Source: Armatimonadetes bacterium UBA1398 (GTDB lineage: Bacteria; Armatimonadota; Zipacnadia; UBA1398). From it: 64,000 nucleotides of DNA. The notes under the pieces were generated by a model. The model saw nothing but the letters and a program-made list of their open reading frames with translations. It did not search any database and had not been told where the DNA came from. The position numbers were made by a program, and so were the translations under genes. Where the stretch lies: contig DBQI01000026.1 of assembly GCA_002305165.1 (NCBI GenBank), positions 5,398-69,397 of the forward strand. The letters run 5' to 3'. Shown piece by piece: positions 2,727 to 38,371 of the stretch (position 1 is the first letter of the stretch; each line of letters opens with the position of its first letter).

Positions 2727-4079
2727 GTGCGGGTATTCATCGTAGGCGCCGGAAGTATGGGATTCGCCCTCGCTCAGGAACTGGACGAGGAGGGCCATGA
2801 GGTCGTCGTCATGGACAGGGATCCGGCGCGAATAGACCTGGCGCGCACGCAGCTCGACGTGCTGGGGATCGCAGGGTCGGGGCTCAACCTGCGAGGCCTC
2901 CGGGAGGCGGGGCTGGAGTCGGCGGATCTTCTGATTGCCACGACAGGGCTTGATGAGGTCAACCTCGTGGCGTGCCTGCTAGCGCGGGAGATCGGGGTAC
3001 GTCGCCGGATCGCTCGCGTGCACTTTCAGGACCTGATCGAGGACATCGCTGAGGTGGAGCTGTCGGTCCTTGGCGTCGACGAACTCGTGAACCCCGCCGA
3101 GGTGACGGTGAGACAGCTCTTCGACATGGTGAGGACGCCGGGGACCCTGGAGACGGCGGAGTTCGCCGATGGCGCCATGGTGCTTCGGGGGCTGCGGGTG
3201 CTACCCCACTCGCGCTTCCTGAAGGCCCCCCTTCAAGGGCTGCGGGCCATGACGAAGCATCCCTTCGTCATCACGGGGGTGCGCCGCGGCGAGCAGTTCC
3301 TGGTGCCGAAGGGGGACTTCTCTGCAGAAGAGCACGACATCATCTACGTGGTGACTGCTGCCCCGCACCTTCAGGCCTTCCTCCGCGCCTTCGGCTTCCG
3401 CCAACGCCGCGACCAGCGGGTCATCATCTACGGCGCGAGCACTATCGGTCGGCACCTCGCTGCCAGGCTGGAGTTGGTGGAACGCGAGGTTATGCTCATC
3501 GAGCCGTCCCACGAGAAGTGCGCTCGGGCGTCGGAGGAGCTCCGCCATACCTCGGTGATCCATGGAACGCCGCTGGACAGCCATCTCATGGATGCCCTCA
3601 ACGTGGCGGAGGCGGACTACTTCCTGGGAGTGTCTGACAGCGAGGAGACCAACCTCACGGGGGCGCTCTGGGCGAAGCGGCTGGGGGCGCGTCGGGCGAT
3701 CACCCTCACCCAGCTGCCAGAGCATGTGGCGCTGTTCGAGGATCTCCCCGTCGACGCGGTAGTATGCCCCATCGCGCTCACCGTCGGCGCGATCCTCCGG
3801 CGCGTCAGGGAGGGAACGATCCTCTCGCTGTTCCGCCTCGCCGGCGAGAGGGGGGAGGCGATGGAGGTCGTCGCGCAAGAAGGCTCGCCCGCGGCGGGCA
3901 AGGTGATCCGCGACATCGACTTCCCTGCGGGCGTCGTGGCCGCGGCCGTCGTTGGGAGTGGCGCCCCACAGGTCGCTGGCGGCAACACCCTGATCGCGCC
4001 GGGTGACCGCGTGGTGGTCGTAGCGCGGGTGGACGCGCTGGACGACGCGCTCGCGCTGTTCGACGGGGACAACGGGTGA
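2727..4079 (+). CDS. trkA: Trk potassium uptake system protein TrkA (two RCK/NAD-binding domains)
   Basis: 450 aa with two repeats of the RCK_N Rossmann motif (VFIVGAGSMG...; VIIYGASTIG...), each followed by an RCK_C domain. GTG start. Its stop overlaps the trkH start by 4 nt. Confidence 0.85.
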   Translation: MRVFIVGAGSMGFALAQELDEEGHEVVVMDRDPARIDLARTQLDVLGIAGSGLNLRGLREAGLESADLLIATTGLDEVNLVACLLAREIGVRRRIARVHFQDLIEDIAEVELSVLGVDELVNPAEVTVRQLFDMVRTPGTLETAEFADGAMVLRGLRVLPHSRFLKAPLQGLRAMTKHPFVITGVRRGEQFLVPKGDFSAEEHDIIYVVTAAPHLQAFLRAFGFRQRRDQRVIIYGASTIGRHLAARLELVEREVMLIEPSHEKCARASEELRHTSVIHGTPLDSHLMDALNVAEADYFLGVSDSEETNLTGALWAKRLGARRAITLTQLPEHVALFEDLPVDAVVCPIALTVGAILRRVREGTILSLFRLAGERGEAMEVVAQEGSPAAGKVIRDIDFPAGVVAAAVVGSGAPQVAGGNTLIAPGDRVVVVARVDALDDALALFDGDNG

Positions 4080-5671
4080 ACTGGCCGCTGGTTGTCCATA
4101 CCCTCGGACGGCTAGCGGGGATCATGGCCGCGGCTATGGTCCCCTCTCTCGGCATCGCCGTCTTCGGGGGCGACCGGCCGGAGGTAGCGCCTGCAACGAC
4201 GGCCGCCTTCGCGCAGGGCATCGGGCTGAGCGCCCTGGTATCGGCCATCCTGCTGCTCGGCACCCTGGGTCGGACGGGTGGACGCTTCAGCGCCTCGGAC
4301 GGTTTCTCGATCGCCACTCTGGGATGGCTCGTGCTAGCGCTGCTCGCGGCGGTACCGCTTTACCTCTGCAAGGCGGCCGGGGCCGAAGGTGGGGCCAGTC
4401 CAGCCGCTTCCTTCAGCTTCGCCGACGCACTCTTCGAGACCATGAGCGGGCTAACGACGACCGGAGCGACGGTTTTCGGGACCGACGCCTCCGTGGTAGG
4501 TGGACGCGGCGTGATCGAGGCGCTCCCGCCGAGCTTCCTGTTCATGCGTAGCCTGTGCCACTGGTTGGGGGGCATGGGGATCATTGTGCTCTGCTTGGCG
4601 GTGCTGCCAAGCCTCGGCGCGGGCGGATACCAGGCTTTCCAGGCCGAGGTCCCTGGCCCGGTGGCGGAGCGGCTACGGCCGCGGCTTCGTGAGACGGCGG
4701 CCATCCTGTGGGGCGTCTACCTGCTTCTCACCCTGACGGAGATCCTGCTGCTGTGGATCGGTCGGATGCCGCTCTTCGATGCGATCTGCCATGCCTTCGG
4801 GACTATGGCCACGGGGGGGTTCTCGACCAAGGATGCGTCGATCGGTCACTACGCGGCGGTGGGCCACCCGTCGGCGCTCTACTTCGAGGCTGTCATCACC
4901 GTGTTCATGGCGCTGGCGGGCGTGAACTTCCTACTCCACTATCAGGCACTGCGAGGCTCTTTCGAGGGCTTCCGCCGCAACCGAGAGTTGCACTTCTACG
5001 CCCTCGTACTGGTTTTCGCCGCGTTGGTGATTGGTAGCGCCCTGGCCCTGTGGGGGGACGCGGCGTACCACTCGGCGCCCGTCATTGCACGCCACGCGAT
5101 CTTCCAGGTGGTTTCGGTCACCACGACGACGGGCTTCGTCACAACGGACTTCGATGTGTGGCCGACCCTCTGTCGCGCGGTCCTACTGATCCTCATGTTC
5201 TTCGGCGGCTGTGCCGGGTCAACGGCGGGTGGCATGAAGCAGATACGGGTTCTTGTCTTGGGCAAGTACTTCCATCGCGAGCTGATTCGGCTTCTCCGCC
5301 CCAGCATTCTCAAGCCCATCCGCGTGGGCAGCACGGTGCTGGACTCCCGTCGGGTTGCCAACATCGTGGGGCTCGCGGTGCTCTGGGTAGGCTGTGCGGT
5401 GGCGGCCAGCCTCCTGCTGTCCGCACTCCTGTATGGCGCGGCGAACCCGAGCGTTCCAGACCATCCGGATTCCCGGCTCGTAACGGCCGTGAGTGCTGTG
5501 ATCACGACCATCAACAATGTGGGACCGGGCATGTCCGGGGTGGGTGCGCATCAGAACTACGGATGGATGCCTGCGGGGGCGAAGCTTCTGCTCAGCCTCT
5601 GCATGTTGATGGGGCGGCTGGAGATCTACTCTGTGCTGATCGTGTTCCTACCGCGTACCTGGCGCCTCTGA
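4076..5671 (+). CDS. trkH: Trk potassium uptake protein TrkH
   Basis: 531 aa polytopic membrane protein with TrkH signature segments (GGMGIIVLCLAVLPSLGAGGYQAF; TTTGF repeats). It is translationally coupled to trkA. Confidence 0.9.
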   Translation: MNWPLVVHTLGRLAGIMAAAMVPSLGIAVFGGDRPEVAPATTAAFAQGIGLSALVSAILLLGTLGRTGGRFSASDGFSIATLGWLVLALLAAVPLYLCKAAGAEGGASPAASFSFADALFETMSGLTTTGATVFGTDASVVGGRGVIEALPPSFLFMRSLCHWLGGMGIIVLCLAVLPSLGAGGYQAFQAEVPGPVAERLRPRLRETAAILWGVYLLLTLTEILLLWIGRMPLFDAICHAFGTMATGGFSTKDASIGHYAAVGHPSALYFEAVITVFMALAGVNFLLHYQALRGSFEGFRRNRELHFYALVLVFAALVIGSALALWGDAAYHSAPVIARHAIFQVVSVTTTTGFVTTDFDVWPTLCRAVLLILMFFGGCAGSTAGGMKQIRVLVLGKYFHRELIRLLRPSILKPIRVGSTVLDSRRVANIVGLAVLWVGCAVAASLLLSALLYGAANPSVPDHPDSRLVTAVSAVITTINNVGPGMSGVGAHQNYGWMPAGAKLLLSLCMLMGRLEIYSVLIVFLPRTWRL

Positions 5672-5725: not shown

Positions 5726-7789
5726 TTACCGAGGGACGATCCACACGAAGTCGACGCCGACATCGGAGCCAGCGCCCTCCTCGCCCGGGCCGAGGGCCGT
5801 CACGGTGAGGGTGTGCTCGCCCGCGGCGAGGTCGAGGGTGTCGAAGAAGAAGTTCCGCAGCATCTCCATGTGAGGCGTGAACAGGTCGGGCTGTAAGCCC
5901 ATCGGGTCGGCGCCGTCTAGGGAGACGCTGAAGCGGCCGCTGGTAGGCGAGAGCGCGCAGGTCAGGACGATCTGGTATCTGCGGCCCTCGGGCACGTCTA
6001 TGGCGAACTGAACGCTGTCCCCCTCGCTCGGTCCCGCTAGCAGCACCAACCCGTCGCCGGACCACATCTCGCCCGACACGACCTCTGCGGGTCCGGCATC
6101 CGCGATGATGTCCTCCGCCTGCCAGAAGGTGGCTCCGCTGGCGGCGCCCAGGGCGAGGGGTTCCCACCCGATGGGCAGATCCAGGCCCAGGGTCACGTCG
6201 AGGGTTGTCAGAGGCACGAAGGCGTCGCGCAGTGTGTCATCGGCGTAGACGTAGGCGATGCGGCCGTAGCTGATGCCGGGCGTGTGGGTGTGGCTGAATA
6301 GCTCCATGTAGAAGTCAAGGCGCTCCTGGAACGGCAGGGGATCGAGGATGTGGAACCTGTTGTTCGCCACGAAGCCGCGGTTATCGGGGCCGGTGGTCAG
6401 CGGTTGGCACGCGTAGGCCGTCTGGAAGAGATCCGGGCGACTCCAGGCGTAGTTGTAGTAGTCCTCGGATCCGGTGCCAAAGAGCGAGGGGAAGGCGTCG
6501 TCGTCGACCCAGATCTTCTCGTCCCCCTCGCCCCACCAGTTGCCCCCAGAGGTTGGGACCAGCGAGGAGTTGAGCAACATGCACGCGACTCCGACGAGCA
6601 CCCCGCGGCCGCGGGCAACGATGTAGGGCAGGTCGAAGACGCCTGTCAGGCCCTGTGCTTCGAGGTCATGATTGATCTGCCACTTCGCATAGAGATGGAG
6701 CGATGACTCCGGGTTCCACTCGTAGGAGGCGACATTGATGGCCCCCTCGACGGTCGCCTCAGCGCCAGAGCGGTTCTGGACGACGATCCGAGCAGACCGC
6801 GCGAAGGGCATCACGAAGCGACAGGTCATCGTGCCGTCGGGCCTTACCGTGAACGGCAGGCTGTCGTACGGAGCGAGACCCGGACCGGCGCCGAAGAAGT
6901 CGCCCAGTGGGCTCTCGACCTGGGGTTGCTCGGCCCCGTCGAAGAAGACCTTGAGGATCACGCCTCGCAGGGCTCGCCGCAGGTTCTCCCCCTGCACGGA
7001 CAGGGAGAGCTCGCGAATCACCTGAGACCCCTCAAGAGCGATGAGTTCGCTCGCGCCACCAGCCGGAACCTCAGCACGGAGGTCGTAGGTTGTCCCATCG
7101 GCCTCGGGGTAGGTGGCCTCGGTATCCGCCAGGATGGCGATGGCCCGCTCGATCTCCGCGCTGTATGTGGTCAAATCGCCGGTGGCGAAGGACTGGACTT
7201 GGGTGCCCTCCTCGTACAGACGGGCCTCCATGTGGTAGAAGTGGAGCCGATCGAGCTGCCCAGTCCACTCGATGCGTAGGCTCTCGGCAAAGGGAATGGG
7301 GAAGTAGCAGGCCATGTTCTGGTGGAAGCCGCGCTCCACGTCGGCCTCGATGATGCCCTCGCGCTGGGCGAGTTCGCTGTAGGTCCACATCATGAACCGC
7401 TCGGCAGGGCCCTCGTAGAGGAGGCTCCCGTCGAGGATAACCGTTACGTCGCCGTTGATCGCCGCGGTCCACGTGCGCACCAAGGCGCCTGGGCCACGCC
7501 AATCGGCCATGAGATACCGGCCGACGCCCTCATCGTTCGGCTCCTCGAGTACCTCGAGGTAGCCAGGAATGGGCTCTCCCCCAAAACCGTCACTGTTGGC
7601 GTACCAACCCGGTGCGTAGGGCCTAACACTGCGACGATCGTAGGAGGAGACCTGGACGGTCTTGTAGGCGGGATCCGGGAACTCAGCGAGTTGCGAGAGG
7701 GTCACCATCTCGTGAAGCAGTGACCCAGTAGTCACCGGACCGGCGGCGGTTGTGTTGAGAGCCGTAACAGCAAGCAGAATCGTTGTCAT
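5726..7789 (-). CDS. Secreted GH172/DUF2961-family protein with C-terminal beta-sandwich (CBM-like) extension
   Basis: 687 aa. It has an N-terminal signal peptide (MTTILLAVTALNTTAAGP). The central region has DUF2961-like motifs (WWGEGDEKIWVDDD...FGTGSEDYYNYAWS). The ~150-aa C-terminal extension has a carbohydrate-binding look. Confidence 0.65.
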   Translation of the reverse strand: MTTILLAVTALNTTAAGPVTTGSLLHEMVTLSQLAEFPDPAYKTVQVSSYDRRSVRPYAPGWYANSDGFGGEPIPGYLEVLEEPNDEGVGRYLMADWRGPGALVRTWTAAINGDVTVILDGSLLYEGPAERFMMWTYSELAQREGIIEADVERGFHQNMACYFPIPFAESLRIEWTGQLDRLHFYHMEARLYEEGTQVQSFATGDLTTYSAEIERAIAILADTEATYPEADGTTYDLRAEVPAGGASELIALEGSQVIRELSLSVQGENLRRALRGVILKVFFDGAEQPQVESPLGDFFGAGPGLAPYDSLPFTVRPDGTMTCRFVMPFARSARIVVQNRSGAEATVEGAINVASYEWNPESSLHLYAKWQINHDLEAQGLTGVFDLPYIVARGRGVLVGVACMLLNSSLVPTSGGNWWGEGDEKIWVDDDAFPSLFGTGSEDYYNYAWSRPDLFQTAYACQPLTTGPDNRGFVANNRFHILDPLPFQERLDFYMELFSHTHTPGISYGRIAYVYADDTLRDAFVPLTTLDVTLGLDLPIGWEPLALGAASGATFWQAEDIIADAGPAEVVSGEMWSGDGLVLLAGPSEGDSVQFAIDVPEGRRYQIVLTCALSPTSGRFSVSLDGADPMGLQPDLFTPHMEMLRNFFFDTLDLAAGEHTLTVTALGPGEEGAGSDVGVDFVWIVPR

Positions 7790-7935
7790 GCGTGGAAAGC
7801 CTCCTGAGCATTGAGCTGCAGAGGGCCTATTCCGCGCATAACGGTCGATCCCTGCGCCTCATGCCAGGGGGTACAAAGCGAGAGCGCCCCCACAGGGGGC
7901 GCTCTGTACCTACCGCTCACTCAGGAACGATGGAA

Positions 7936-9711
7936 CTAGAAGTACCAGTTCACCGATCCACGAGCCATGGCGCCTACCTGGCTGGCCCCGCCGACACCAG
8001 AGAACTGGGTCAGACCGAGGTCAACGGTGACATCGAAGTCGCCATGGATGCTGATATCGGTACCCGCAATGGCGGTCCAGCGGCTGTTCACGCCATCGGC
8101 CTCGTTGATGAGGCGGAAGCGCCAGTCGCGACTGCCGGAGTGGTAGACGATGTCAGCCCAGGCGGCGTTCTCGCCGTAGACAGCCGGGATCTTGCTGTTC
8201 GTGCGCTGGAACCAGAAGCCCGGCCTGTAGGCGGTGCCGGGGACGCCGCCCATCGCAAACGGCGCCTCATTGTAGCTGAAGAGGTACGGGGTGGTCAGGT
8301 CGGCATTCCTGCCGCTGCGCGCGCTCGGGTTCGCGCCGAGGGGGAGCTGGGCGTAGGACAGACTGATATCCCAGTCCTCGTCGCGCAGAACATCCGCCGC
8401 CACGTACCAGGCCAGGTTGTTGAGGCCGAGGTTGTTCAGCGGGGTGGTCACCTCAGCGCGGATCCCCTCGCCATCCTGGGCATCCCACATGTACTTGACG
8501 TCGACGCCAAGCCGGCCGAACTGCTCGCCGGCGTCGGTGCCGCCGTACCCATCGAGGTCGTTCCAGATCCACGTCACGCCGCCGCCCCAGAGGTCGTCGT
8601 CGGCATCATCAGGATCGTCATAGTTCGCGAGCCTGGCGACGAAGTGGGGACGGGTGTTCATGCCGCCCGCGAAGTAGAACTCGAGCTCATCGAGAGCGGT
8701 GTCGGTAAACTGGGCACGGATGCCATCGGTCGAGCGCGAGTCGTTGTCGAAGGTGAGCCCCTCGGCATAACCGACATACTGACGGCCGATAGTGAGATCC
8801 ACGTCAGCGCCGAAGACCTCAGTGTCATCCACGCGAACCCATGCCTGATCGGGCACAGTGAACGTCTGGTCGACGGGAAGCGCGTTGTCGTTCTCCCACA
8901 GCACGATGCCAACACTGGTCTTGGAGTTGATGCGCTTGTAGAACTCCAGCCAGATGTCGTAGCTGTTGGCAAGCTCGACAGCGTCCACGAGCCCGGCCGC
9001 GTTCGCGCCAGAGGCAACAGCCACGAAGTCGGTGGCGAGCATGCCAGTGATGACGTCCGGCTCCTCCTCGAGGGCCTTCACGCGGGCCTCGAGAGCCGCA
9101 AGGTCATCGGTCAGGTCGCCGAGGCGGCCATCGATCTCGGCCAGCTCGGGCTCGAGCCAATCGCGCAGCTCAGCGATCTTCTGGTTCAGCGTGGCCTCGT
9201 CGATCAAGCCGCGCTCAGCGATCGCGTCATCCACGAGACCGGCAAGACGGTTGGCATCAACGGTGCCAGCAGGGCCAGCGGGACCAGCCGGACCACGGGG
9301 GCCCGGATCGCCGCGCTCACCCTTGGCGCCAGCGGGACCAGCAGGGCCAGCGGGACCGGCAGGGCCAGCGGGACCAGCAGGACCGGCAACGCCATCCTCA
9401 CCGGGGGTGCCAGGGCCCTCGACGCCCACATTGGCATCGACGTACCACAGCAGGCGAGCCAACGCCATCGCGAACTCGTAACGGGTCAGGAAGTTCTTGC
9501 CCTTGAAGGTCCCGTCGGGGTAACCCTCAAGTAGCCCCGCATCGTAAAGCTCGGCGATCGCGTCATATGCCCAGTGATCCCAGGGAACGTCCGGGGGCAC
9601 GGGGCCGCCGGCGACCATGGTGACACCGGTATCCCAGTCAGCGGACGCCGGAATAACGAGGGCCGCAGCTAGAACTGCCGCTACTACAGATACGAACAGC
9701 GTGCGTCTCAT
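7936..9711 (-). CDS. SLH-domain outer-membrane tether/porin (OmpM/SlpA-like): signal peptide, SLH domain, collagen-like GPA repeats, coiled coil, C-terminal beta-barrel
   Basis: 591 aa. Signal peptide ...PASA/DW. SLH motif [42 protein letters not shown]. About 17 Gly-X-Y triplets ([10 protein letters not shown]...[19 protein letters not shown]). A heptad-like region ([43 protein letters not shown]). A ~370-aa C-terminal region with alternating hydrophobic/aromatic residues ends in ...VNWYF, an OMP beta-barrel C-terminal signature. Confidence 0.8.
9265..9420. repeat. Tandem 9-bp repeats (gggaccagc/agggccagc/gggaccggc variants) encoding the collagen-like GPA triplets of the SLH protein
   Basis: Direct inspection shows at least 7 consecutive near-identical 9-mers in frame with the CDS; this is a potential slipped-strand length-variation site. 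Confidence 0.7.
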
Positions 9712-9943
9712 TGTATGTCGCCCTCCTACGAATGAAGAGCTTCCTTTGACCGACGTGAAGCGAAAGCGCCGTAGGAGGAAGACCCCTCAGGAGTAGGTAG
9801 GTCCGGCAACCATTGCACAAGTGTCCACGTTTCCTTGCGCGGTTGCGTCGCCGCCCGCTTCCGTTGGCAGTCTCCCTTTTGGCTACACCGCTCCTCTCCG
9901 CGCAGACTACGCTCACGTCTGAGGAAGCTCACCAACACTAGCA

Positions 9944-9977
9944 CATGCGCCCGAGCGCATGCAAGATTCCTGCATGC
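9944..9977. promoter_or_regulatory. Two overlapping mutually exclusive hairpins (CATGCGC-ccga-GCGCATG and GCATGCA-agattcc-TGCATGC) spanning the annotated start codon of the first URO-D-like gene
   Basis: Read directly from the sequence. The middle arm GCGCATGC is shared by both stems, and the ATG at 9959 lies inside it. Confidence 0.3.
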
Positions 9978-11116
9978 CCTCGAACTTCATACCGTACCGG
10001 AGGCATTCACCGATACGCACCCGAATACCTCCCTCAGGGAGGGAGCCCGTGGTCGATGGGCCCGACTTCAACCAGTACCTAGACGCTATATACCGTACCA
10101 ACGATCCCCATCGCGTACCGGTTGGGGAATTGTTTGTCGAGGACATCATTGCACGCCAGCTATCTGAGGGACCCATCGACTATGACGATCACGGAATGAC
10201 GCTCCGAGGCATGCGGGTGTTCCTCGAGACTCACCGCGTCCTGGGGTTCGATGCAGTGACGGTCGGGGTAGGCCCTGGCTTCGAGCTTCCAGAGTGGGCG
10301 ATGACGACCGATGTCGCGCCCCTCTCCAAGGGCCAACGCGGGTTCGTGACCGGTGGAGCCAGCCGGATCTGGGATAGGGCGTCCTTTGAGGCTTACCCCT
10401 GGCCGAGTCCAGAGCAGGTAGACTACACACCCCTGGAACGGGCTAGTAAGGCTATGCCGGACGGCATGGCCATCCTTGGGTCTGTGGGCGGCCCCTGCGA
10501 GTGGCTCATGTGGATCATGGGCTACGAGGCCTTGAGCCTGGCTCTGGCGGACGATCCGGAACTCGTCAGCGACGTCGTGGACTGCATCGAGCGACAGATG
10601 CTGGCGGTATTCCGCCACGTGGCCGCGATGGAGCGCGTCGGCGCCATGTGGATCTCGGACGACATGGGGTTCCGCACCGGCACCTTCCTATCGCCCGCCC
10701 ATATGCGAGCCTACGTGCTACCCACGCAGAGGCGCCTAGCGGCAGCGGCCCATGCGGAGGGCATCCCCGTGTTGCTGCACTCCTGCGGCAATCTCACCGC
10801 GATCATGGATGATCTGATCGACGATGTGGGCATCGATGCCAAGCACTCCTTCGAGGACGTCATCACGCCGGTTACCGAGGCGAAGAGGCTCTGGGGACAC
10901 CGGGTCTGCCTCATCGGTGGCGTCGATCTCGACCCCCTCACTCGGCTCTCGCCGGAGGAGGTCTACCGCTACACCCTAGGGATCCTGGAAAAGTGCGCTC
11001 CAGGAGGTGGGTACATCCTCGGCACGGGAAACAGTGTAGCGAACTACGTGCCCATCCCCAACTACCTCTCAATGCTCCAGGCTTGGCGCGACTGGCACAT
11101 AACCTCAGCCACGTGA
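9959..11116 (+). CDS. Uroporphyrinogen decarboxylase (URO-D)-like family protein, paralog 1 (MtaA/CmuA-like fold, function unknown)
   Basis: 385 aa. URO-D-family features: a central beta/alpha-barrel region ...MWISDDMGFRTGTFLSPAHMRAYVLP...IPVLLHSCGN...LGTGNSV. The exact start is uncertain; an alternative ATG lies at 9974. Confidence 0.7.
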   Translation: MQDSCMPSNFIPYRRHSPIRTRIPPSGREPVVDGPDFNQYLDAIYRTNDPHRVPVGELFVEDIIARQLSEGPIDYDDHGMTLRGMRVFLETHRVLGFDAVTVGVGPGFELPEWAMTTDVAPLSKGQRGFVTGGASRIWDRASFEAYPWPSPEQVDYTPLERASKAMPDGMAILGSVGGPCEWLMWIMGYEALSLALADDPELVSDVVDCIERQMLAVFRHVAAMERVGAMWISDDMGFRTGTFLSPAHMRAYVLPTQRRLAAAAHAEGIPVLLHSCGNLTAIMDDLIDDVGIDAKHSFEDVITPVTEAKRLWGHRVCLIGGVDLDPLTRLSPEEVYRYTLGILEKCAPGGGYILGTGNSVANYVPIPNYLSMLQAWRDWHITSAT

Positions 11117-11129
11117 AGGGACCGATCCA

Positions 11130-12293
11130 GTGGGGAACACACCCACGCCCGCCGACGGCGTGCATAGCATGGTGCCCAGGGAAGAGATGTCGGAGAGCGC
11201 CCGCAAGCTGCGGGACACCTACGCGCGCACCCCAGGGGCGCCACTCGTGCAGAGAGAGTTCGGGTTCTACTGCCTGGATCGGTGGCGTCGGGAGGGCATG
11301 CCCACCGATGTGCCCCTCCATGAGCTGTTCCAGTACGACCCGCCTGGCAACTACGGGCTCGGTCAGTTGGGATGGTGTGAGGCCGCATTCCTACCCGCGT
11401 TCGAGGTCGAAGTCATCGAGGACCGTGGGGAGCATGAGGTGGTCCGCGACTACGCCGGCCGCCACGTTCTGTACTTCAAGGGACGCCGCGACGGCTTCAT
11501 GCCGGAGTACCTCGAGCACCCCGTGAGGGACGCTCGAACGTGGGAGGAGGACGTCAAGTGGCGGCTCGACCCCTCGAGTGAGGAGCGGTACAGCGATCTG
11601 GGGCCCAGGATGGAGGCCGCGCGAGAGCAGGCGCGTCGCGGTCAGATGATCAGCCAGGGCCTCATCGGGGGATACATGTACCTGCGCAGCCTCATCGGGC
11701 CCGAGCATGTGCTCTACGCGTTCCACGATCAGCCGGCGCTCATCCACGACTGCATGACGACTTGGTTCACGCTGGCCGATGCCGTCATCTCACGGCATCA
11801 GGAGCATGTAACGATCGACGAACTCTTCTTGGCCGAGGACATCTGCTACAACCACGGGCCGCTGATCTCTCCGGCAATGATAGGCGAGTTCCTGGCGCCC
11901 TACTACGAGCAACTCATCGCGAACGTGAAGGCGCGTCAGATCGATCGTGACCGCCACCTCTATCTGCACATCGACACCGACGGCTATGCCCCGCCCGTCA
12001 TGCCGGTGTACAAAACCCTCGGCATGGACGCCATGAGCCCATTCGAGGTCGCCTCAGGCTGTGACGTGGTGGCTGTGGGGCAGGAGCATCCCGATGTGGC
12101 GCTGTTCGGTGGCATGGACAAGCGTGTGCTGGCACAGGGCAAGGCGGCGATAGACGCGATGGTCGAACGGGTCCTCCCTGCGATGCGCGAGCGCGGGGGG
12201 TACATACCAACATGCGACCACGGGGTGCCCGAGGAGGTCCCCTACGAGGACTATCTGTACTACCGAGCGCGCTGCGTGGAACTGGGGAGTTAG
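11130..12293 (+). CDS. Uroporphyrinogen decarboxylase (URO-D)-like family protein, paralog 2
   Basis: 387 aa with the same fold-level signature (...LAEDICYNHGPLISPAMIGEFLAPYYEQL...LHIDTDGYAPP...CDHGVPEEVPYEDYLYYR). It lies 14 nt downstream of paralog 1 and is only distantly related to it. Confidence 0.7.
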   Translation: MGNTPTPADGVHSMVPREEMSESARKLRDTYARTPGAPLVQREFGFYCLDRWRREGMPTDVPLHELFQYDPPGNYGLGQLGWCEAAFLPAFEVEVIEDRGEHEVVRDYAGRHVLYFKGRRDGFMPEYLEHPVRDARTWEEDVKWRLDPSSEERYSDLGPRMEAAREQARRGQMISQGLIGGYMYLRSLIGPEHVLYAFHDQPALIHDCMTTWFTLADAVISRHQEHVTIDELFLAEDICYNHGPLISPAMIGEFLAPYYEQLIANVKARQIDRDRHLYLHIDTDGYAPPVMPVYKTLGMDAMSPFEVASGCDVVAVGQEHPDVALFGGMDKRVLAQGKAAIDAMVERVLPAMRERGGYIPTCDHGVPEEVPYEDYLYYRARCVELGS

Positions 12294-13057
12294 AGCCGCT
12301 CCACCCTCGAGGCTTTCAGGTAGGGCGCGCCGGCCTCGGTGAGGCCAGGGACGGCGGTGACGCGGACACGGGGCGCCGGGCGCTGAGTCGAGTCCAGGCT
12401 ATCAGGCTCCTCGCCACTCACATAGATCCCGCCCGACTCGTCGGCAACGATCCAGTCGCCTCGGTGCCGGCCGGGCGGCCCCTGGGTTACCGGGCCTTGG
12501 AGCCCCTTGGCCCGCCAGCCCCGGTACTCCCCCTCGACCAGGACGGTGCGTGCCTGGAAGAAGCGCGGGAATTCCGCCAGTTGCGTAACAGTTACGACCC
12601 TGGGCACCCAGTCATACCGGAGTTCGACCGTTCCCTCATGCTCGATGAAGCGCGTCTCGATGGGCAGGATCCTGCGCCAGACGCCGTCGGGGAGGTACAT
12701 GACGCCGGACCGGAGGGGCGGAGGGGAGCCCATCTCCAGATCCTCCTCGTTCACGGTCACGGTCGGCTCGCCCAGCCGGAGGGCGATCTTCGTGTCTGGC
12801 AACGTCGCGGACAGGCTGTCCGTGGAGTCATCCCACGAGACGTGGGCGCCCAGTCGCTCCAGGACCAGACGCACGGGGAGAAGCAGAACGTTGTCCTGGT
12901 AGAGTGGGGGAGGCGGCGCCGGTTGGCCCTGTTCGCGGGTGACCTCGATGGTCTCGATGTACAGCCGTAGCGGCGCGTTCTGAGCGTGAGCGCGCTCGGG
13001 CAGCGCCGCCAGAGCGATGCAGAAGCTGGCTCCCAGGATCAGTAACCGGCGGGTCAT
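12290..13057 (-). CDS. Secreted protein with copper-amine-oxidase N-terminal-like (CuAO-N1 stalk) domain
   Basis: 255 aa. It has a signal peptide (MTRRLLILGASFCIALAALPERAHA). It carries a domain of the ...LLLPVRLVLERLGAHVSWDDSTDSLSA... type. Its 3' end overlaps the convergent URO-D paralog 2 by 4 nt. Confidence 0.5.
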   Translation of the reverse strand: MTRRLLILGASFCIALAALPERAHAQNAPLRLYIETIEVTREQGQPAPPPPLYQDNVLLLPVRLVLERLGAHVSWDDSTDSLSATLPDTKIALRLGEPTVTVNEEDLEMGSPPPLRSGVMYLPDGVWRRILPIETRFIEHEGTVELRYDWVPRVVTVTQLAEFPRFFQARTVLVEGEYRGWRAKGLQGPVTQGPPGRHRGDWIVADESGGIYVSGEEPDSLDSTQRPAPRVRVTAVPGLTEAGAPYLKASRVERL

Positions 13058-15382: not shown

Positions 15383-16189
15383 ATGCGCGTGTTCATTGCC
15401 GTAGACATCGAGGGCATCAGCTCCATGGTGGACTGGCGTGACCAGTCGGACTTCGAGGCACGGAGGTGGATGACGGAGGACGCCAACGCGGCTGTGCGTG
15501 GCGCCTTCGAGGGTGGAGCGTCGTACGTCTGCGTCCGCGACTGCCACGGCCCGGCCCGAAGCATCATTCCAGAGGCTCTCGACGAACGTGCCGAGCTGTG
15601 TCGTGGCTGGGATAACCTCCACGGCATGGTGGACGGCGTTGAGAGCGGCTTCGACGCCCTCATGCTCGTAGGTTGGCATGCCCGGTATGGAACGGAGTCG
15701 GGTGTCATGGCACACAGTTGGTCGGGCATCATCCGGAACATCTGGGTCAACGGAGTCGAGATGGGGGAGGTCGGGCTGGCCGCCGTGATCGCTGGTGCGG
15801 CAGGCGTGCCGGTCGCGATGGTCTCCGGCGATGACGCGCTGGCGAAGGAGGCGCAGGCGCTGCTCCCCGGTGTGCGCGCCGCCGTTGTGAAATACGGCCT
15901 GAACCGGCTGGCGGGCCGCTGCCTGTCGCCGAGTCGGGCGCGGCGCGTGATCGAGGACACCGCGCGAGCGGCCGTCGCGGAGCAGCGAGCCGCCGCCTAC
16001 GGCACCCAGTGGCCCGCCTCCATCGAGGTCCGCTACCAGCATCGTGGCCAAGCCTCGTGGGCGGCGAGGGTGCCTGGAGTGCGTCGCGAGGGGGACTATG
16101 GAATCGCGACCGAGGTGGCCGATGCGGCCGCGCTGAAGGACATTCTGTTCTGCTGCAACCGGCTTGCCTATGCCTGCGATCTTTACTAG
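15383..16189 (+). CDS. D-aminopeptidase, peptidase family M55 (DppA-like), paralog 1
   Basis: 268 aa, starting MRVFIAVDIEGISS... with the conserved DCHG and GWHA motifs of the M55 family. Confidence 0.8.
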   Translation: MRVFIAVDIEGISSMVDWRDQSDFEARRWMTEDANAAVRGAFEGGASYVCVRDCHGPARSIIPEALDERAELCRGWDNLHGMVDGVESGFDALMLVGWHARYGTESGVMAHSWSGIIRNIWVNGVEMGEVGLAAVIAGAAGVPVAMVSGDDALAKEAQALLPGVRAAVVKYGLNRLAGRCLSPSRARRVIEDTARAAVAEQRAAAYGTQWPASIEVRYQHRGQASWAARVPGVRREGDYGIATEVADAAALKDILFCCNRLAYACDLY

Positions 16190-16202
16190 AGGAGTGGATA
16201 GC

Positions 16203-17006
16203 ATGAAGGTCTACCTCGTGACCGACTTGGAGGGCGTAGGTGGCGTGTGGGACTGGGACCACGGCCAGTGGTCACCAGAGGAGCGCGCGCGGGCACGGTC
16301 GCTCCTCACCGGCGAGGTGAACGCCGCGGTTGAGGGGTTCCTGCTGGGGGGCGCGAGCGAGGTCATCGTCAATGATGGCCACGGCGTGGGGTACAGCATC
16401 GATATCGAGGATGTGCACCCCAGAGCCCGTGTTATCCACGGGCAGGATCGGCCCATCTGGCTACCGCTCTTCGACGGCACGTTCGCCGCCACGGGCCTTG
16501 TGGGCGCTCACGCGAAGGCCAATACGGCTGGCGCGAACCTGTGCCACACCATGTCCTCGCTGAGCATCGACGGTTACTGGGTGAACGACGTCTCCATTGG
16601 CGAGATAGGCCTTCAGGCCATCACGGCAGGGCACTTCGGGGTTCCCTTCGTCTTCCTCTCGGGCGACGAGTACGCCTGTCGCGAGGTATCGGAACTCATA
16701 CCAGGGGTCCGCACGGTCGCGACAAAGCTCGGGCTGTCCACCCGCTCCGCCTGCACGCTGAGCCCCGCCGCATGCCGTGAAGGCATCCGCGAGGGCGCCG
16801 CTGCCAGCATGGAACTCATCGGCACAGTAGAACCTCTAACCCTAGGGTCGCCCCTGGTGTTCCGCGAGCGTCGCCAGAGGCCCGACTTCGATGGGCGGGT
16901 GCCCGGAGAAGGGGAACGGATCCTGAGTCGCTGGGAGCGCGAGATCAGCGCAACGGATCCCATCGACCTCACATGTAAGCTGTACGGCTACAGGCCTCCA
17001 GCGTAG
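16203..17006 (+). CDS. D-aminopeptidase, peptidase family M55 (DppA-like), paralog 2
   Basis: Its start is the internal ATG at 16203 (MKVYLVTDLEGVGGV...), preceded by GGAGTGG. It has the NDGHG motif. It lies 14 nt after paralog 1. Confidence 0.8.
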   Translation: MKVYLVTDLEGVGGVWDWDHGQWSPEERARARSLLTGEVNAAVEGFLLGGASEVIVNDGHGVGYSIDIEDVHPRARVIHGQDRPIWLPLFDGTFAATGLVGAHAKANTAGANLCHTMSSLSIDGYWVNDVSIGEIGLQAITAGHFGVPFVFLSGDEYACREVSELIPGVRTVATKLGLSTRSACTLSPAACREGIREGAAASMELIGTVEPLTLGSPLVFRERRQRPDFDGRVPGEGERILSRWEREISATDPIDLTCKLYGYRPPA

Positions 17007-17080
17007 AGGCCTTCGGCGCGCCGGCACGTAAGTAGTAGGTGTGCGCCGGACCCAGCGCGGGTCCGGGAGGGAGGACCACC

Positions 17081-19249
17081 ATGGTACGGTCAATCCTAGG
17101 CATCCGGGCGTTGGCCGCCCTTGTCCTCGTGGCAAGTCTGGTAGTGGCGCCGGCAGCGTTGGCGCAAGGCCTGCCTGAAGTGGCCATCGAGCAGCCTCGC
17201 GATGGCGCCGATGTGGCCACTCTCGGGATTCCGCTGACGGACATCCCATTGACGGTGAGCTACAAGTCATCGGCCGGGGTCGACAAGATCGAGGTCCTGG
17301 TGGATGGGGCGGTGCAGTTCGTGGACCGCTTCAGCGCTCCCGAGACAGAGGGGCGACGGTCCTACCTCTGGGATGCGACGGCTCACGGCCCCGGCAAGCA
17401 CACCATCAGCGTCATCGTGTTCGCCGGCGCACGATCGGCTGGAGCACAGGCGGTGGTCGAGTACAAGGCGGTTCCGTCGCCAGGAGAGGTCCAGCCCAGG
17501 GCGACTCTGGCGGTCGTCAGCCCAAGCCCCGGCGCGGTCGTGTCTGGTCTCGTTCCCCTGCGAGTCGAGACCACGGGGGCGCGGCCGCACTGGGTGCAGT
17601 TTTTCCTGGATGGGCGTGCGGTGGGCCACAGCCTGAGCGAGCCCTACGCGATCTCCATCGACACCTCGCTCTACGCCGACGGTCGACACGTCGTCTACGC
17701 CGCGATGAAGACAGACCGCGGCACCGTCACAAGTGACACGCTCCACGTCAACTTCATGAACCTGGAGATCCCAGAACCACAGGGCGAAGGGGTTGTAGAG
17801 CCACCCGGTGAGGACCCGGGGATCGAGGGGGCTGGCCCCGAGATCGATGTGGCCCCGGTCGAGGAGCCCGTGAAACCGGACCCCGGACCGGCCATCGCCA
17901 TTCCCGCGGCGCCGATCGAGCCCCTCACGCCGCCAGTGCCGTCCCCCGCGGACCCGCTCAACGTGGGTGTGGACCCCCAGGGGCAGCCACCCCTGGAGGT
18001 CGTGGAGCCTGTTGAGCCGGTCGAGGCCGATCCCGGGACTATGACGGACCTACCGCCCGACATCGCCGGCGCCGGGGAGTGGCAGCCCGTCGGTGTGGGC
18101 GAGGAAGGCCCAGCGATGGTGCTTCCTGTGGAGGTCGCGCCGGATGAGCCGCCGCCCGGAGAGCCTGTCGTTGAGCCTCCGACGCCTGTGGACGCCACTA
18201 TGCGGCCGTTGGACACGGAGTTGGCGGGCCCGGATGGGCTCGGCGTCCAGGCTCCGTCGACCCCGCCGGCCGAGCCGAGTGTCCCGCCGGCGCCGGATGT
18301 CACAGCACCGACCGAGGAGCCTGCGGTGCCGCCGCTGGAGCCGGTTGAGCCCGACGTTCCCGTTCTGCCGGAGCCGCAGAGCCCGACCCCGGAGGAGGTC
18401 CCGCCCCCGCTGACACCGCAGCTGGTAGAGATCGACGAGGCTTCAACAGGCTCCGTGAGTCCGCTGCCGCCTCTTGTGCCGTTGCCAAGTCTCACGGGCC
18501 CCGCTGATGCGGCGTTGCCCGACCTGCCTCGGACCGGTCCTGTTGGGCTGCCGTCACCCGAGAAGGCGCCATCCCCAGAGGAGAGTCCGGCGGCACCTCG
18601 GTCCGAGCAGCCGGTGGAGCCGCTGCCTGCAGCGGTCGAGGAACTCGCTGGTCCGGCGGAGGTCGCCGCGCTCGGCGCGTTGCCGGAGCCCAGAACTCCG
18701 GAGGAGATCCCCGTGGTTGAGGCGCCCACTGAGCCAGCGCTTCCCGGTCCTGCCGCGCCGCCGACTGCCGCTGAGGCTGTGGCCGTCGATCCGTTACCGA
18801 GTTCCAGCGACGATCCTGTGCCGGTCATCGGCCATACCCCCCTGCTCACCAGCCCCACGGGCGGCCCCGCCCCGGATGCGGCTACCGAGGAGACGGGTCT
18901 GGTTGTGTGCCTGGACGGTGCGCCGATGGAGGGAGTGCGGCCAGCGATCATCCAGGATGGCGCTGTCTACTTGGCCCTCCGCGACCTGCTCATTGCCGTT
19001 CGCGGCTCCATGACCTGGGATGCCCCGTCGGGACGCATGTCCGGTCGAGCCGGCACTGCCAGCTTCGCCATCACTGCTGGCGGCGACAAGGCAACGCTAC
19101 GTGGTGGGGAGATGGTCCTTGATGCGCCGGCTCTGGTCATAGACGGCACGCTCATGGTGCCCCTCGGCTTCGTGGAGGAACTCTTGGGCCTGCAGTCTGT
19201 CCAGGATCCTGCCGCTGGTACTCTGGAATTCAAGGGCTCTAGCCAGTAG
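17081..19249 (+). CDS. Large secreted protein: signal peptide, two Ig-like (Big) domains, ~380-aa Pro/Glu/Val-rich low-complexity linker, C-terminal CuAO-N1-like domain
   Basis: The start is taken as the ATG at 17081 (MVRSILGIRALAALVLVASLVVAPAALAQG), preceded by GGGAGGGAGG. The C-terminus (...VYLALRDLLIAVRGSMTWDAPSGRMSG...GTLMVPLGFVEELLG) matches the copper amine oxidase N-domain fold used for cell-wall association. Confidence 0.7.
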   Translation: MVRSILGIRALAALVLVASLVVAPAALAQGLPEVAIEQPRDGADVATLGIPLTDIPLTVSYKSSAGVDKIEVLVDGAVQFVDRFSAPETEGRRSYLWDATAHGPGKHTISVIVFAGARSAGAQAVVEYKAVPSPGEVQPRATLAVVSPSPGAVVSGLVPLRVETTGARPHWVQFFLDGRAVGHSLSEPYAISIDTSLYADGRHVVYAAMKTDRGTVTSDTLHVNFMNLEIPEPQGEGVVEPPGEDPGIEGAGPEIDVAPVEEPVKPDPGPAIAIPAAPIEPLTPPVPSPADPLNVGVDPQGQPPLEVVEPVEPVEADPGTMTDLPPDIAGAGEWQPVGVGEEGPAMVLPVEVAPDEPPPGEPVVEPPTPVDATMRPLDTELAGPDGLGVQAPSTPPAEPSVPPAPDVTAPTEEPAVPPLEPVEPDVPVLPEPQSPTPEEVPPPLTPQLVEIDEASTGSVSPLPPLVPLPSLTGPADAALPDLPRTGPVGLPSPEKAPSPEESPAAPRSEQPVEPLPAAVEELAGPAEVAALGALPEPRTPEEIPVVEAPTEPALPGPAAPPTAAEAVAVDPLPSSSDDPVPVIGHTPLLTSPTGGPAPDAATEETGLVVCLDGAPMEGVRPAIIQDGAVYLALRDLLIAVRGSMTWDAPSGRMSGRAGTASFAITAGGDKATLRGGEMVLDAPALVIDGTLMVPLGFVEELLGLQSVQDPAAGTLEFKGSSQ
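17759..18898. repeat. Low-complexity Pro/Glu/Val/Ala-rich coding region (PEPV-type linker); generates a long Gly/Ser-rich antisense shadow ORF
   Basis: The composition is visible in the translation of 17081..19249. Confidence 0.6.
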
Positions 19250-38180: not shown

Positions 38181-38371
38181 GTCATCAGCTCCTTTGGGCT
38201 GAGATCGGTTTCCCTCGGGGCCGTGGGGAGACCTCCGGGACAGCTTCTCTGCGGCGCGATCACGTGATTCGGGCAGAGGAAGGCGTGGGTTGCAGGGGGA
38301 ACCCACGTCTTCATGGTCGAGGCGGGGCGATTCCGCACCTCGGATCCATCCAGGAAAGAGAGCGGTGACAG

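What the first reader, a model, noticed from the sequence alone, without database searches (positions are those of the whole stretch)
7936..9711. OmpM/SlpA-like outer-membrane tether with an inserted collagen-like (GPA)n triple-helix module encoded by tandem 9-bp repeats
Signal peptide, one SLH domain, ~17 Gly-X-Y triplets, a coiled coil and a C-terminal beta-barrel ending in the aromatic W-Y-F match the architecture of SLH-porin tethers that link the outer membrane to pyruvylated cell-wall polymers in atypical diderms. The collagen-like spacer between SLH and coiled coil is unusual; all three modules (SLH, collagen, coiled coil) are trimer-forming, consistent with a trimeric periplasmic stalk. 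The DNA encoding it is a perfect 9-bp tandem array (9265-9420), prone to slipped-strand expansion or contraction that would change periplasm-spanning length.
Basis: partly seen in the sequence, partly recalled or inferred. Interest (0 to 1): 0.6.

Follow-up and report, generated by a model that had tools for sequence, protein, structure and literature searches.

The report
Collagen-stalked outer-membrane tether porin
This gene encodes an outer-membrane pore protein whose cell-wall-binding foot is held on a stalk made partly of bacterial collagen. The same design turns out to be the rule across a large, undescribed protein family of the phylum Armatimonadota, which would make it the first collagen rod predicted to work inside the periplasm.

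Summary
The ORF is real: 7936-9711, minus strand, 591 aa. It has a signal peptide, one SLH domain and 17 uninterrupted Gly-X-Y triplets. A heptad coiled coil follows, then a confidently modelled 18-strand porin-fold β-barrel ending in W-Y-F. The OmpM/SlpA-like reading is supported.

Two points need correcting.

- **The DNA is not a perfect 9-bp array.** Only 9 of the 17 units encode GPA, and they use mixed synonymous codons. Three full alleles and one partial allele at about 99% identity show no length change in the block.
- **The collagen module is not an oddity of this gene.** At least 114 related proteins of 500 aa or more have SLH, 7-68 Gly-X-Y triplets and an aromatic last residue. Every one that carries a source name is from Armatimonadota.

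Several features argue for a real triple helix rather than a floppy linker. Gly periodicity is strictly conserved, X is 56% Pro, and 83% of Y-position Lys residues sit in KGD/KGE motifs.

The window is syntenic with an Armatimonadia MAG. A closely related strain carries the gene as a tandem duplicate. No paper in the searchable library links collagen with OmpM or SLH porins. I rate it a new variant of a known kind. All evidence is computational.

The parts
7936..9711 (-). Complete gene, 591 aa: signal peptide, SLH, collagen-like region, coiled coil, beta-barrel
   Evidence: ORF list; GC3 0.79. Substitutions between alleles are almost all synonymous: 13-20 nt differences give 0-2 aa changes.
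9721..9727 (-). Shine-Dalgarno-like AGGAGGG, 10 nt upstream of the ATG
   Evidence: Read directly from the sequence.
9640..9711 (-). Signal peptide, residues 1-24, with an A-S-A|D signal peptidase I-type site. It is followed by a conserved ADWDxG motif.
   Evidence: Sequence inspection. A24, D25 and the ADWD motif are nearly invariant in alignment A1.
9442..9591 (-). Single SLH domain, residues ~41-90, with conserved W47-A-Y and T76-R-Y-E motifs
   Evidence: Pfam PF00395, E 2.7e-10. Best PDB sequence matches are V. parvula OmpM1 (8bz2, 8bys, 8bym; E ~1e-12) and D. radiodurans SlpA (7zgx; E 3.7e-11).
9259..9411 (-). Collagen-like block: 17 uninterrupted Gly-X-Y triplets, residues 101-151. Nine are GPA; it also contains KGE and GDPGPRG.
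   Evidence: Pfam PF01391, 30.9 bits against a cutoff of 27.2. Triplet-by-triplet read-out. Gly columns are >=90% conserved across homologues. TRF shows imperfect 9- and 18-bp periodicity.
9067..9255 (-). Alpha-helical stalk, residues 153-215. The heptad coiled coil has its core at 175-214 with one stutter.
   Evidence: AF2 helices 153-166 and 172-215. Core positions are 100% L/I/V/M/F with 3.5-3.6 periodicity.
7939..9054 (-). 18-strand outer-membrane beta-barrel, residues 220-591, with a long partly helical loop at ~457-513
   Evidence: AF2 barrel-only model: pLDDT 84.8, pTM 0.83, 18 strands. Foldseek against the PDB returns porins only (MOMP, AlgE, OprD/Occ, PorB, OmpM1) at probability 1.0 and TM 0.45-0.57.
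7939..7965 (-). C-terminal beta-signal-like strand end, ARGSVNWYF, with terminal Phe and alternating hydrophobic residues
   Evidence: Sequence. W-x-F or a terminal Phe is conserved across the family and superfamily.
7881..7905 (-). 11-bp GC-rich hairpin (AGAGCGCCCCC-UGU-GGGGGCGCUCU) starting 31 nt after the stop codon, followed by CGCUUUGU. Probable transcription terminator.
   Evidence: RNA fold -35.3 kcal/mol, z = -2.7. The simple consensus scan did not call it, because the U tract is weak.
5726..7789 (-). Downstream GH172 (DUF2961) gene, a conserved neighbour of this porin subfamily. It is context, not part of the protein.
   Evidence: Pfam DUF2961, E 1.7e-60. The same porin-then-GH172 order is found in L011, L006 and L013, where the porin is only 50% and the GH172 only 56% identical.

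Best explanation
The gene encodes a member of the OmpM/SlpA class of outer-membrane tether-porins from an Armatimonadia bacterium. Part of the usual coiled-coil stalk is built from a bacterial collagen triple helix.

Proposed mechanism:
1. The precursor is exported by Sec and cleaved after Ala24.
2. The C-terminal 18-strand barrel is inserted into the outer membrane by BAM, using its terminal W-Y-F beta-signal. Both barrel ends face the periplasm.
3. Three chains associate through the barrels and the heptad coiled coil (residues ~172-215).
4. The coiled coil sets the register and nucleates zipper-like folding of the 17 Gly-X-Y triplets (residues 101-151) into a triple helix.
5. The three N-terminal SLH domains then come together and bind the peptidoglycan layer. 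The ligand would be a pyruvylated secondary cell-wall polymer or polyamine-modified peptidoglycan.

The stalk would be roughly 23 nm long. The collagen part contributes 51 x 0.286 = 14.6 nm. The helical part contributes 58 residues x 0.148 = about 8.6 nm. The collagen part therefore gives twice the reach per residue of a coiled coil. The barrel probably also serves as a diffusion channel.

Shown computationally: domain identities, the barrel fold, conservation of the Gly-X-Y register and KGD/KGE motifs, and lineage. Inferred: trimer formation, triple-helix folding in the periplasm, the SLH ligand, and the porin and tether functions.
For: Modules and fold:
- SLH and Collagen Pfam hits both pass their thresholds.
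- The SLH domain is most similar to the solved tethers OmpM1 and SlpA.
- The barrel model (pLDDT 84.8, 18 strands) matches porins including OmpM1 at probability 1.0.
- The helix runs straight into strand 1, as in OmpM. The heptad core is fully conserved.

Evidence that the collagen block is a real triple helix:
- All full-length homologues keep an uninterrupted, or once-interrupted, Gly-X-Y run. Its length changes only in whole triplets, while X and Y vary.
- In 114 superfamily proteins, X is 56% Pro and Y is mostly Ala, Pro, Gln or Lys.
- Of 182 Y-position Lys residues, 83% are followed by Gly-Asp/Glu, against a 14% background. From my own knowledge of the host-guest peptide work of Persikov and Brodsky, KGD and KGE are strongly stabilising interchain ion pairs.

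Lineage and selection:
- The window is syntenic with an Armatimonadia MAG.
- OmpM homologues have been reported in Armatimonadetes.
- Substitutions between alleles are nearly all synonymous, so the gene is under purifying selection.
- Long trimeric periplasmic stalks have precedent: about 28 nm in SlpA and 45 nm predicted for Omp-alpha.
Against: - Nothing is experimental.
- AF2 was run on a monomer, so it cannot model the collagen or the trimer. pLDDT is below 50 for residues 1-151.
- The barrel has no sequence-level match to any Pfam, NCBIfam or PDB porin family. Kinship with OmpM barrels therefore rests on fold and architecture only.
- No csaB, BamA or LPS genes lie in the 64-kb window, so neither the SLH ligand nor the outer membrane of this particular organism is confirmed directly.
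- No bacterial collagen is known to fold in the periplasm.
- Superfamily stalk lengths of 7 to 68 triplets are hard to reconcile with a single fixed periplasm width.
Confidence: 0.72

Rival explanations
1. The Gly-X-Y stretch is only a flexible, Pro/Ala-rich spacer between the SLH domain and the coiled coil. It never forms a triple helix. The protein would then be an ordinary OmpM with a floppy linker.
For: AF2 gives the segment very low confidence and no structure. Bacteria lack hydroxyproline. No periplasmic collagen has been described in the literature searched.
Against: - A disordered linker does not need Gly at every third position. Here the register is unbroken for 12-21 triplets in most of 114 proteins, and up to 48 in a long class, while X and Y drift.
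- Indels come in whole triplets.
- The composition is that of stable Hyp-free collagens: X is 56% Pro, and 83% of Y-position Lys residues sit in KGD/KGE.
- The block lies directly N-terminal to a trimeric coiled coil, which is the classic nucleation arrangement.
- Monomer AF2 cannot model collagen in any case.
Confidence: 0.15
2. The N-terminal SLH-collagen-coiled-coil part is displayed outside the cell. It would act as a collagen-like adhesin or surface fibre anchored by the barrel, like trimeric autotransporters or Bucl8, and not as a periplasmic tether.
For: All characterised bacterial collagen-like proteins are surface or exosporium structures. Collagen-bearing trimeric autotransporters appeared among the weak hits (Glaesserella parasuis proteins with PF05662). 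Bucl8 is an outer-membrane protein with an extracellular collagen-like region.
Against: - An even-numbered, 18-strand barrel puts the N-terminus in the periplasm.
- The barrel is of monomeric porin size, not the 4-strands-per-chain autotransporter type.
- The SLH domain is closest to the periplasmic SLH domains of OmpM1 and SlpA.
- The module order SLH, stalk, barrel is exactly that of OmpM and SlpA.
Confidence: 0.05
3. The 9-bp repeat is a contingency locus. Slipped-strand mispairing would frequently change the number of triplets, and with it the stalk length, within populations.
For: There is a near-perfect 18-bp unit x 3 (94% matches). The six consecutive GPA triplets here are more homogenised than in the Bin_177 orthologue. 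Triplet number differs between orthologues (17 vs 18) and across the family (15-21).
Against: - The repeat is imperfect, with 5 codon combinations among the 9 GPA units.
- The window allele, both tandem copies in LSQX01292687.1 and the partial Logan allele differ by 13-20 substitutions elsewhere. All have the same block length and only one synonymous change inside it.
- Any change would be in frame, so there is no on/off switching.
Confidence: 0.08
4. Besides tethering, or instead of it, this subfamily is a substrate-specific channel that works with the adjacent GH172 glycosidase to take up a particular sugar. This does not exclude the best explanation.
For: The porin-then-GH172 gene order is kept in the window, in L011, in Bin_177 (L006) and in a contig where the porin is only 50% identical (L013). 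Genomes carry several divergent paralogues, four in Bin_177, as expected for specialised channels. There is a long partly helical loop at 457-513 that could constrict the pore. OmpM1 itself doubles as a nutrient channel.
Against: A terminator-like hairpin separates the two genes. Other paralogues have no GH172 neighbour. The GH172 protein has no clear signal peptide. Conserved order could simply be inherited synteny.
Confidence: 0.25

Closest known systems
OmpM (Veillonella parvula OmpM1; Selenomonas ruminantium Mep45)
   Same: Signal peptide, a single N-terminal SLH domain, a trimeric stalk and a C-terminal porin barrel. The SLH domain is the best sequence match in the PDB (E ~1e-12). The barrel fold matches 8bym. 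OmpM1 has a dual tether and porin role.
   Different: The OmpM1 stalk is coiled coil only and its barrel has 16 strands. Here there are 18 strands, a 51-residue collagen block in the stalk, and no detectable sequence similarity in the barrel.
SlpA of Deinococcus radiodurans / Thermus thermophilus
   Same: SLH domain, long homotrimeric stalk and OM beta-barrel, acting as an OM-PG connector or spacer. The stalk length is of the same order, about 28 nm. The SLH match has E 3.7e-11.
   Different: SlpA has a 28-30-strand barrel and an all-alpha coiled coil with beta-layers. It has no Gly-X-Y region.
Thermotogae Omp-alpha / Omp-beta
   Same: An SLH domain plus a long rod-shaped periplasmic spacer that sets the OM-wall distance.
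   Different: The system is split into two proteins. The spacer is a coiled coil ending in a transmembrane helix, with no collagen.
Cyanobacterial SLH-porins (NCBIfam por_somb)
   Same: An N-terminal SLH domain fused to an OM porin. The NCBIfam model matches the SLH part.
   Different: The match covers only model positions 9-56 of 485 and scores 36 bits against a cutoff of 100. The barrel belongs to a different family and there is no collagen.
Bacterial collagen-like proteins (Scl1/Scl2, BclA, Lcl) and Bucl8
   Same: Hyp-free Gly-X-Y triple-helix repeats next to a trimerising domain. These give weak NCBIfam and PDB matches over residues 101-151. Bucl8 shows that a collagen-like region can be part of an outer-membrane protein.
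   Different: All of these are extracellular: surface, exosporium or adhesin structures. Here the topology puts the collagen in the periplasm as a structural spacer.
Collectins (SP-D, MBL) and class A scavenger receptors. This is a working analogy, not homology; it rests on my own knowledge.
   Same: A collagen triple helix sits directly N-terminal to an alpha-helical trimeric coiled-coil 'neck', which nucleates and registers it. Together they form a rigid rod carrying three ligand-binding heads.
   Different: These are eukaryotic, hydroxylated and secreted. There is no relationship in sequence or context.

Membership tests
OmpM/SlpA-type SLH tether-porins | N-terminal Sec signal peptide | tested here: met
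   Hydrophobic core plus an ASA|D cleavage motif, conserved in the family. This is by inspection; no predictor tool was available.
OmpM/SlpA-type SLH tether-porins | One N-terminal SLH domain per chain | tested here: met
   Pfam SLH, E 2.7e-10, one stretch. The best PDB hits are OmpM1 and SlpA. There is no second SLH domain in the window.
OmpM/SlpA-type SLH tether-porins | Extended trimeric stalk, a coiled coil, between the SLH domain and the barrel | tested here: met
   Helix 172-215 has a fully conserved a/d core and 3.5-3.6 periodicity. The trimeric state was not modelled. An extra collagen block is present.
OmpM/SlpA-type SLH tether-porins | C-terminal outer-membrane beta-barrel of porin fold | tested here: met
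   18 strands, pLDDT 84.8. Foldseek hits are porins including 8bym and 8bys. The chain ends in Phe.
OmpM/SlpA-type SLH tether-porins | Sequence homology of the barrel to known OmpM, SlpA or OprB barrels | tested here: not met
   No Pfam, NCBIfam or PDB profile hit for the barrel. The similarity is structural only.
OmpM/SlpA-type SLH tether-porins | Host is a diderm member of the Terrabacteria | tested here: met
   Synteny and 76-88% amino-acid identity with an Armatimonadia MAG. OmpM homologues are reported in Armatimonadetes. The outer membrane of this particular organism was not shown.
OmpM/SlpA-type SLH tether-porins | SLH binds pyruvylated SCWP or polyaminated peptidoglycan; csaB is present in the genome | not testable with these tools
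   The TRYE and WAY motifs are present. There is no csaB in the 64-kb window, and the rest of the genome is not available.
OmpM/SlpA-type SLH tether-porins | Homotrimer that tethers the OM; loss causes OM detachment | not testable with these tools
   This needs multimer modelling, biochemistry or genetics.
Collagen triple-helix repeat proteins (Pfam PF01391) | Uninterrupted Gly-X-Y repeats scoring above the Pfam gathering score | tested here: met
   30.9 bits against a cutoff of 27.2. There are 17 triplets.
Collagen triple-helix repeat proteins (Pfam PF01391) | Composition compatible with a stable Hyp-free triple helix, with an adjacent trimerisation domain | tested here: met
   In the window protein X is Pro in 10 of 17 triplets. 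Across the superfamily X is 56% Pro, and 83% of Y-position Lys residues are in KGD/KGE. A coiled coil lies directly C-terminal.
Collagen triple-helix repeat proteins (Pfam PF01391) | Actual triple-helix formation | not testable with these tools
   This needs CD, DSC, EM or multimer modelling.
Trimeric autotransporter adhesins | 12-strand barrel made of 4 strands per chain, with the passenger exported through it | tested here: not met
   The barrel has 18 strands per chain. The only similarity to TAAs is in the collagen repeats.

The most novel reading that the evidence does not exclude
Armatimonadota as a phylum have rebuilt the ancestral OmpM tether so that a collagen triple helix, nucleated by a short coiled coil, acts as the periplasmic rod between the peptidoglycan and the outer membrane. 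That would be the first collagen working inside a bacterial periplasm. The number of triplets falls into length classes: about 12-21, mode 14-15; and 33-48, with a tight cluster of 9 proteins at 44-48. The long forms share a conserved GPRGERGPVGPTGPKGD core. On this reading, triplet number acts as a molecular ruler for envelope spacing, and paralogues with different barrels serve as specialised channels.
Probability: 0.5. Interest if true: 0.78.

Novelty: new variant of a known kind. Interest (0 to 1): 0.62.

Why it matters
OmpM-type tethers are thought to be the ancestral way of attaching the outer membrane to the wall in Terrabacteria. They are central to current ideas on diderm-to-monoderm transitions. 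Every characterised example uses an alpha-helical coiled-coil stalk.

A phylum-wide switch to a collagen rod would matter in four ways:
- It would show that the stalk is a modular, exchangeable spacer.
- It would extend bacterial collagens from surface adhesins and spore fibres to an internal, load-bearing envelope role.
- It would give a natural series of stalk lengths (7 to 68 triplets) with which to test whether tether length sets periplasm width, an open question so far addressed mainly with Lpp in E. coli.
- It would offer short, Hyp-free, KGD/KGE-stabilised collagen modules with a built-in coiled-coil nucleator for protein engineering.

Tried and rejected
- **Barrel-only searches.** A word-index search and a full HMMER profile search of 1.84 billion representatives found only 15 and 14 proteins. 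That first suggested a tiny family. The full-length search and hhalign showed it is one branch of a large superfamily.
- **SLH-only query.** It returned only 19 short fragments and told me nothing about architecture.
- **Sequence searches on the barrel.** Pfam, NCBIfam and a PDB profile search on the barrel found no family.
- **Cluster look-up for organism names.** It gave no names. Taxonomy rests on the genome-contig titles and on names in the search tables.
- **Window scan for envelope genes.** I looked for csaB, a second SLH protein, and BamA or LPS genes. None turned up among the 40 largest ORFs or by tblastn.
- **RNA searches.** Rfam on the locus and tRNA scanning of the window found nothing. 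The promoter and terminator consensus scan was uninformative.
- **The 583-aa plus-strand ORF at 7783-9534.** It is a high-GC shadow of the real gene and was rejected.
- **Neighbour comparison in the P0003 contigs.** A 687-aa gene lies upstream of that paralogue. It is not GH172-like, and apart from GH172 in the orthologous loci no neighbourhood is conserved across paralogues.
Full report
**1. What is in the sequence**

The minus-strand ORF 7936..9711 encodes 591 aa. It is the coding frame, with GC3 of 0.79. An AGGAGGG ribosome-binding site lies 10 nt upstream of the ATG. A strong GC-rich hairpin begins 31 nt after the stop codon. The long ORF on the opposite strand is a high-GC shadow of this gene.

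The protein starts with a typical signal peptide...VIPASA|DWD. Pfam finds one SLH domain (residues 46-81, E 2.7e-10). It also finds a Collagen repeat match above its gathering score (residues 101-150; 30.9 vs 27.2 bits). Against PDB sequences, the SLH domain is closest to V. parvula OmpM1 (8bz2, 8bys, 8bym; E ~1e-12) and D. radiodurans SlpA (7zgx; E 3.7e-11).

Residues 101-151 (window 9259-9411) are 17 uninterrupted Gly-X-Y triplets: GTP GED GVA (GPA)x6 [12 protein letters not shown] (GPA)x3 GTV.

**2. The DNA repeat claim**

The block is not a perfect 9-bp array and it is not at 9265-9420.
- The nine GPA units use five different codon combinations.
- TRF reports 76-85% matches at period 9.
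- The best array is an 18-bp unit x 3 at 94%.

A closely related record, LSQX01292687.1 (assembly GCA_001577815.1), is about 99% identical to the window. It carries the gene twice in tandem. A Logan contig gives a further partial allele. The full alleles differ from each other by 13-20 substitutions, which cause only 0-2 amino-acid changes. All have the same 17-triplet block, with a single synonymous change inside it.

This shows purifying selection on a real gene. In this small sample it gives no sign of slipped-strand length variation. Over longer evolutionary distances, whole triplets are gained and lost. The Bin_177 orthologue has 18 triplets, with one triplet missing and one added relative to the window.

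**3. Stalk and barrel**

A full-length AF2 model places helices at 153-166 and 172-215. These run directly into 18 beta-strands. Across homologues, positions 175, 179, 182, 186, 190, 193, 197, 200, 204, 207, 211 and 214 are 100% L/I/V/M/F. Their periodicity is 3.5-3.6, which makes a heptad coiled coil with one stutter.

A barrel-only model built with a 21-sequence alignment is confident: pLDDT 84.8, pTM 0.83, 18 strands. It has a long, partly helical loop at about residues 457-513.

Foldseek against the PDB returns only outer-membrane porins at probability 1.0, with TM 0.45-0.57. The hits are C. jejuni MOMP, AlgE, OprD/Occ, PorB and V. parvula OmpM1.

The chain ends ...VNWYF, and the terminal Phe is conserved across relatives. 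An even number of strands puts the N-terminal SLH-collagen-coiled-coil part in the periplasm.

The barrel has no sequence-level family. Pfam, NCBIfam and a PDB profile search found nothing.

**4. Relatives and lineage**

Searching with the barrel alone found only about 15 proteins. It found 14 of 1.84 billion cluster representatives. Every full-length one carries SLH plus Gly-X-Y.

A genome-contig scan placed the family in Armatimonadia MAGs, with four paralogues in Bin_177. The window is syntenic with contig WJIW01000044 of that MAG over about 6 kb of flanking genes: two URO-D-like genes, a Cu_amine_oxidN1 protein, TatD, MFS and an M55 peptidase. Armatimonadetes have been reported to possess OmpM homologues.

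A full-length search changed the picture. It gave 951 hits, and the 120 listed are almost all 550-700 aa proteins with SLH plus Collagen. Every one that carries a source name is Armatimonadota.

Of the proteins fetched, 114 are at least 500 aa long and have an SLH motif, a Gly-X-Y run and an aromatic last residue. Triplet numbers fall in two ranges:

| Triplets | Detail |
|---|---|
| 7-21 | mode 14-15 |
| 33-48 | mostly 44-48 |
| 68 | a single protein |

A profile-profile comparison covered the region after the collagen block, setting the window's family against the broader group. It gives probability 99.9%, E 4.8e-32, over 299 columns. So this is one superfamily.

Two relatives, P0136 and P0143, have an all-alpha stalk and no Gly-X-Y. 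That suggests the collagen module replaced or extended part of a helical stalk.

**5. Is the Gly-X-Y block a real triple helix?**

Four observations argue that it is.
- Gly columns are at least 90% conserved, while X and Y drift.
- Length changes come in whole triplets.
- X is 56% Pro. Y is Ala, Pro, Gln or Lys.
- Of 182 Lys residues at Y, 83% are followed by Gly-Asp/Glu, against a 14% background for Asp/Glu at X.

From my own knowledge of collagen host-guest peptide work, KGD and KGE are among the most stabilising motifs for Hyp-free triple helices. The block also sits immediately N-terminal to a trimeric coiled coil. That is the arrangement which nucleates collagen folding in collectins and in engineered bacterial collagens (again my own knowledge).

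A disordered linker would not need any of these features. Triple-helix formation itself remains inferred.

**6. Mechanism**

The steps are Sec export, BAM insertion of the barrel, and trimerisation through barrels and coiled coil. Zipper-like folding of the collagen then brings the three SLH domains together on the wall polymer.

Using textbook rises per residue, the stalk is about 23 nm.
- The collagen part is 51 x 0.286 = 14.6 nm.
- The helices add about 8.6 nm.

This is the same order as the ~28 nm of SlpA. OmpM1 is both a tether and a porin, so a channel role is likely here too.

**7. Literature**

The OmpM and SlpA papers never mention collagen, nor does the recent trimeric-autotransporter survey. 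No paper in the held library combines SLH, collagen-like repeats and outer-membrane barrels, or Armatimonadetes and bacterial collagen. The nearest case is Bucl8, an outer-membrane efflux protein with an extracellular collagen-like tail. Within the limits of that library, the collagen-stalked tether is undescribed.

**8. Verdict**

The exception is the 'perfect repeat'.
- The OmpM-like interpretation is supported.
- The slippage idea is not supported.
- The 'unusual insertion' is in fact a lineage-wide design.

I rate it a new variant of a known kind, of moderate-to-high interest. All the evidence is computational.

Noticed in passing
window 7867-9977, compared with L011 (LSQX01292687.1) 232-2344 and 2735-4847: A ~99% identical strain record carries the whole gene plus its 5' region as a tandem duplication. 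The 2.1-kb units are 97.8% identical and are separated by a 390-bp spacer. The window has a single copy. This is either real copy-number variation or an assembly collapse. Bin_177 also has two adjacent copies here, but they are divergent.
   Followed up: partly
window 5726-7789 (-); L006 1579-3585; L013 11974-13992: A GH172 (DUF2961) glycosidase lies directly downstream of the porin gene. This holds in the window, in the near-identical strain, in Bin_177, and in a contig where the porin is only 50% and the GH172 only 56% identical. The pairing is absent next to other paralogues. It may hint at a sugar-specific channel.
   Followed up: partly
Superfamily proteins P0056, P0060, P0062, P0067, P0068, P0074, P0076, P0085, P0094, P0138: A long-stalk class has 44-48 Gly-X-Y triplets, and one protein has 68. 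That is roughly three times the common 14-15. All eight members printed share a conserved central motif, G(P)RGERGPVGPTG(P/S)KGD. It could be a partner-binding site or a register-setting element.
   Followed up: partly
P0136 and P0143 (NCBI/ENA, 1.6-Mb contig): These are clear relatives, with the same SLH domain, coiled coil and G(K/R)QY..GYGL.FDND barrel motif. In place of the Gly-X-Y block they have an alpha-helical, Ala-rich segment. Both look truncated or frameshifted at the C-terminus.
   Followed up: no
window 9625-9639 (-), residues 25-29: An ADWDxG motif directly after the signal-peptide cleavage site is nearly invariant in the close family. It is unexplained.
   Followed up: no
window 35538-36377 (+): A 279-aa ORF combines a T2SS/T4P platform-protein F domain fragment (residues 17-103) with a ClpX-type C4 zinc finger (residues 195-225). 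This is an unusual pairing.
   Followed up: no
window 12290-13057 (-) and 17039-19249 (+): Two proteins carry a copper amine oxidase N-terminal-like domain, one of them with Big_7 Ig repeats. This domain is usually seen in cell-envelope proteins of Firmicutes. The first is conserved in synteny with the Armatimonadia MAG.
   Followed up: no
window 9959-12293 (+) and 15383-17006 (+): There are two tandem paralogue pairs: two URO-D-like (uroporphyrinogen decarboxylase/methyltransferase family) genes and two M55 D-aminopeptidase genes. The rest of the window is ordinary chromosome: Trk, Nuo, Pst, and tRNA synthetases for Trp, Tyr or Met.
   Followed up: no
window 19279-20697 (+): An Orn/DAP/Arg decarboxylase-family gene lies 10 kb from the porin. 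In Negativicutes OmpM binds polyamine-modified peptidoglycan, so a polyamine-pathway enzyme might be relevant. It could equally be LysA.
   Followed up: no
window 34584-35501 (+), 36390-38306 (-), 38372-39211 (+): Three sizeable ORFs (305, 638 and 279 aa) with coding-like GC3 have no Pfam match at E <= 1e-5.
   Followed up: no
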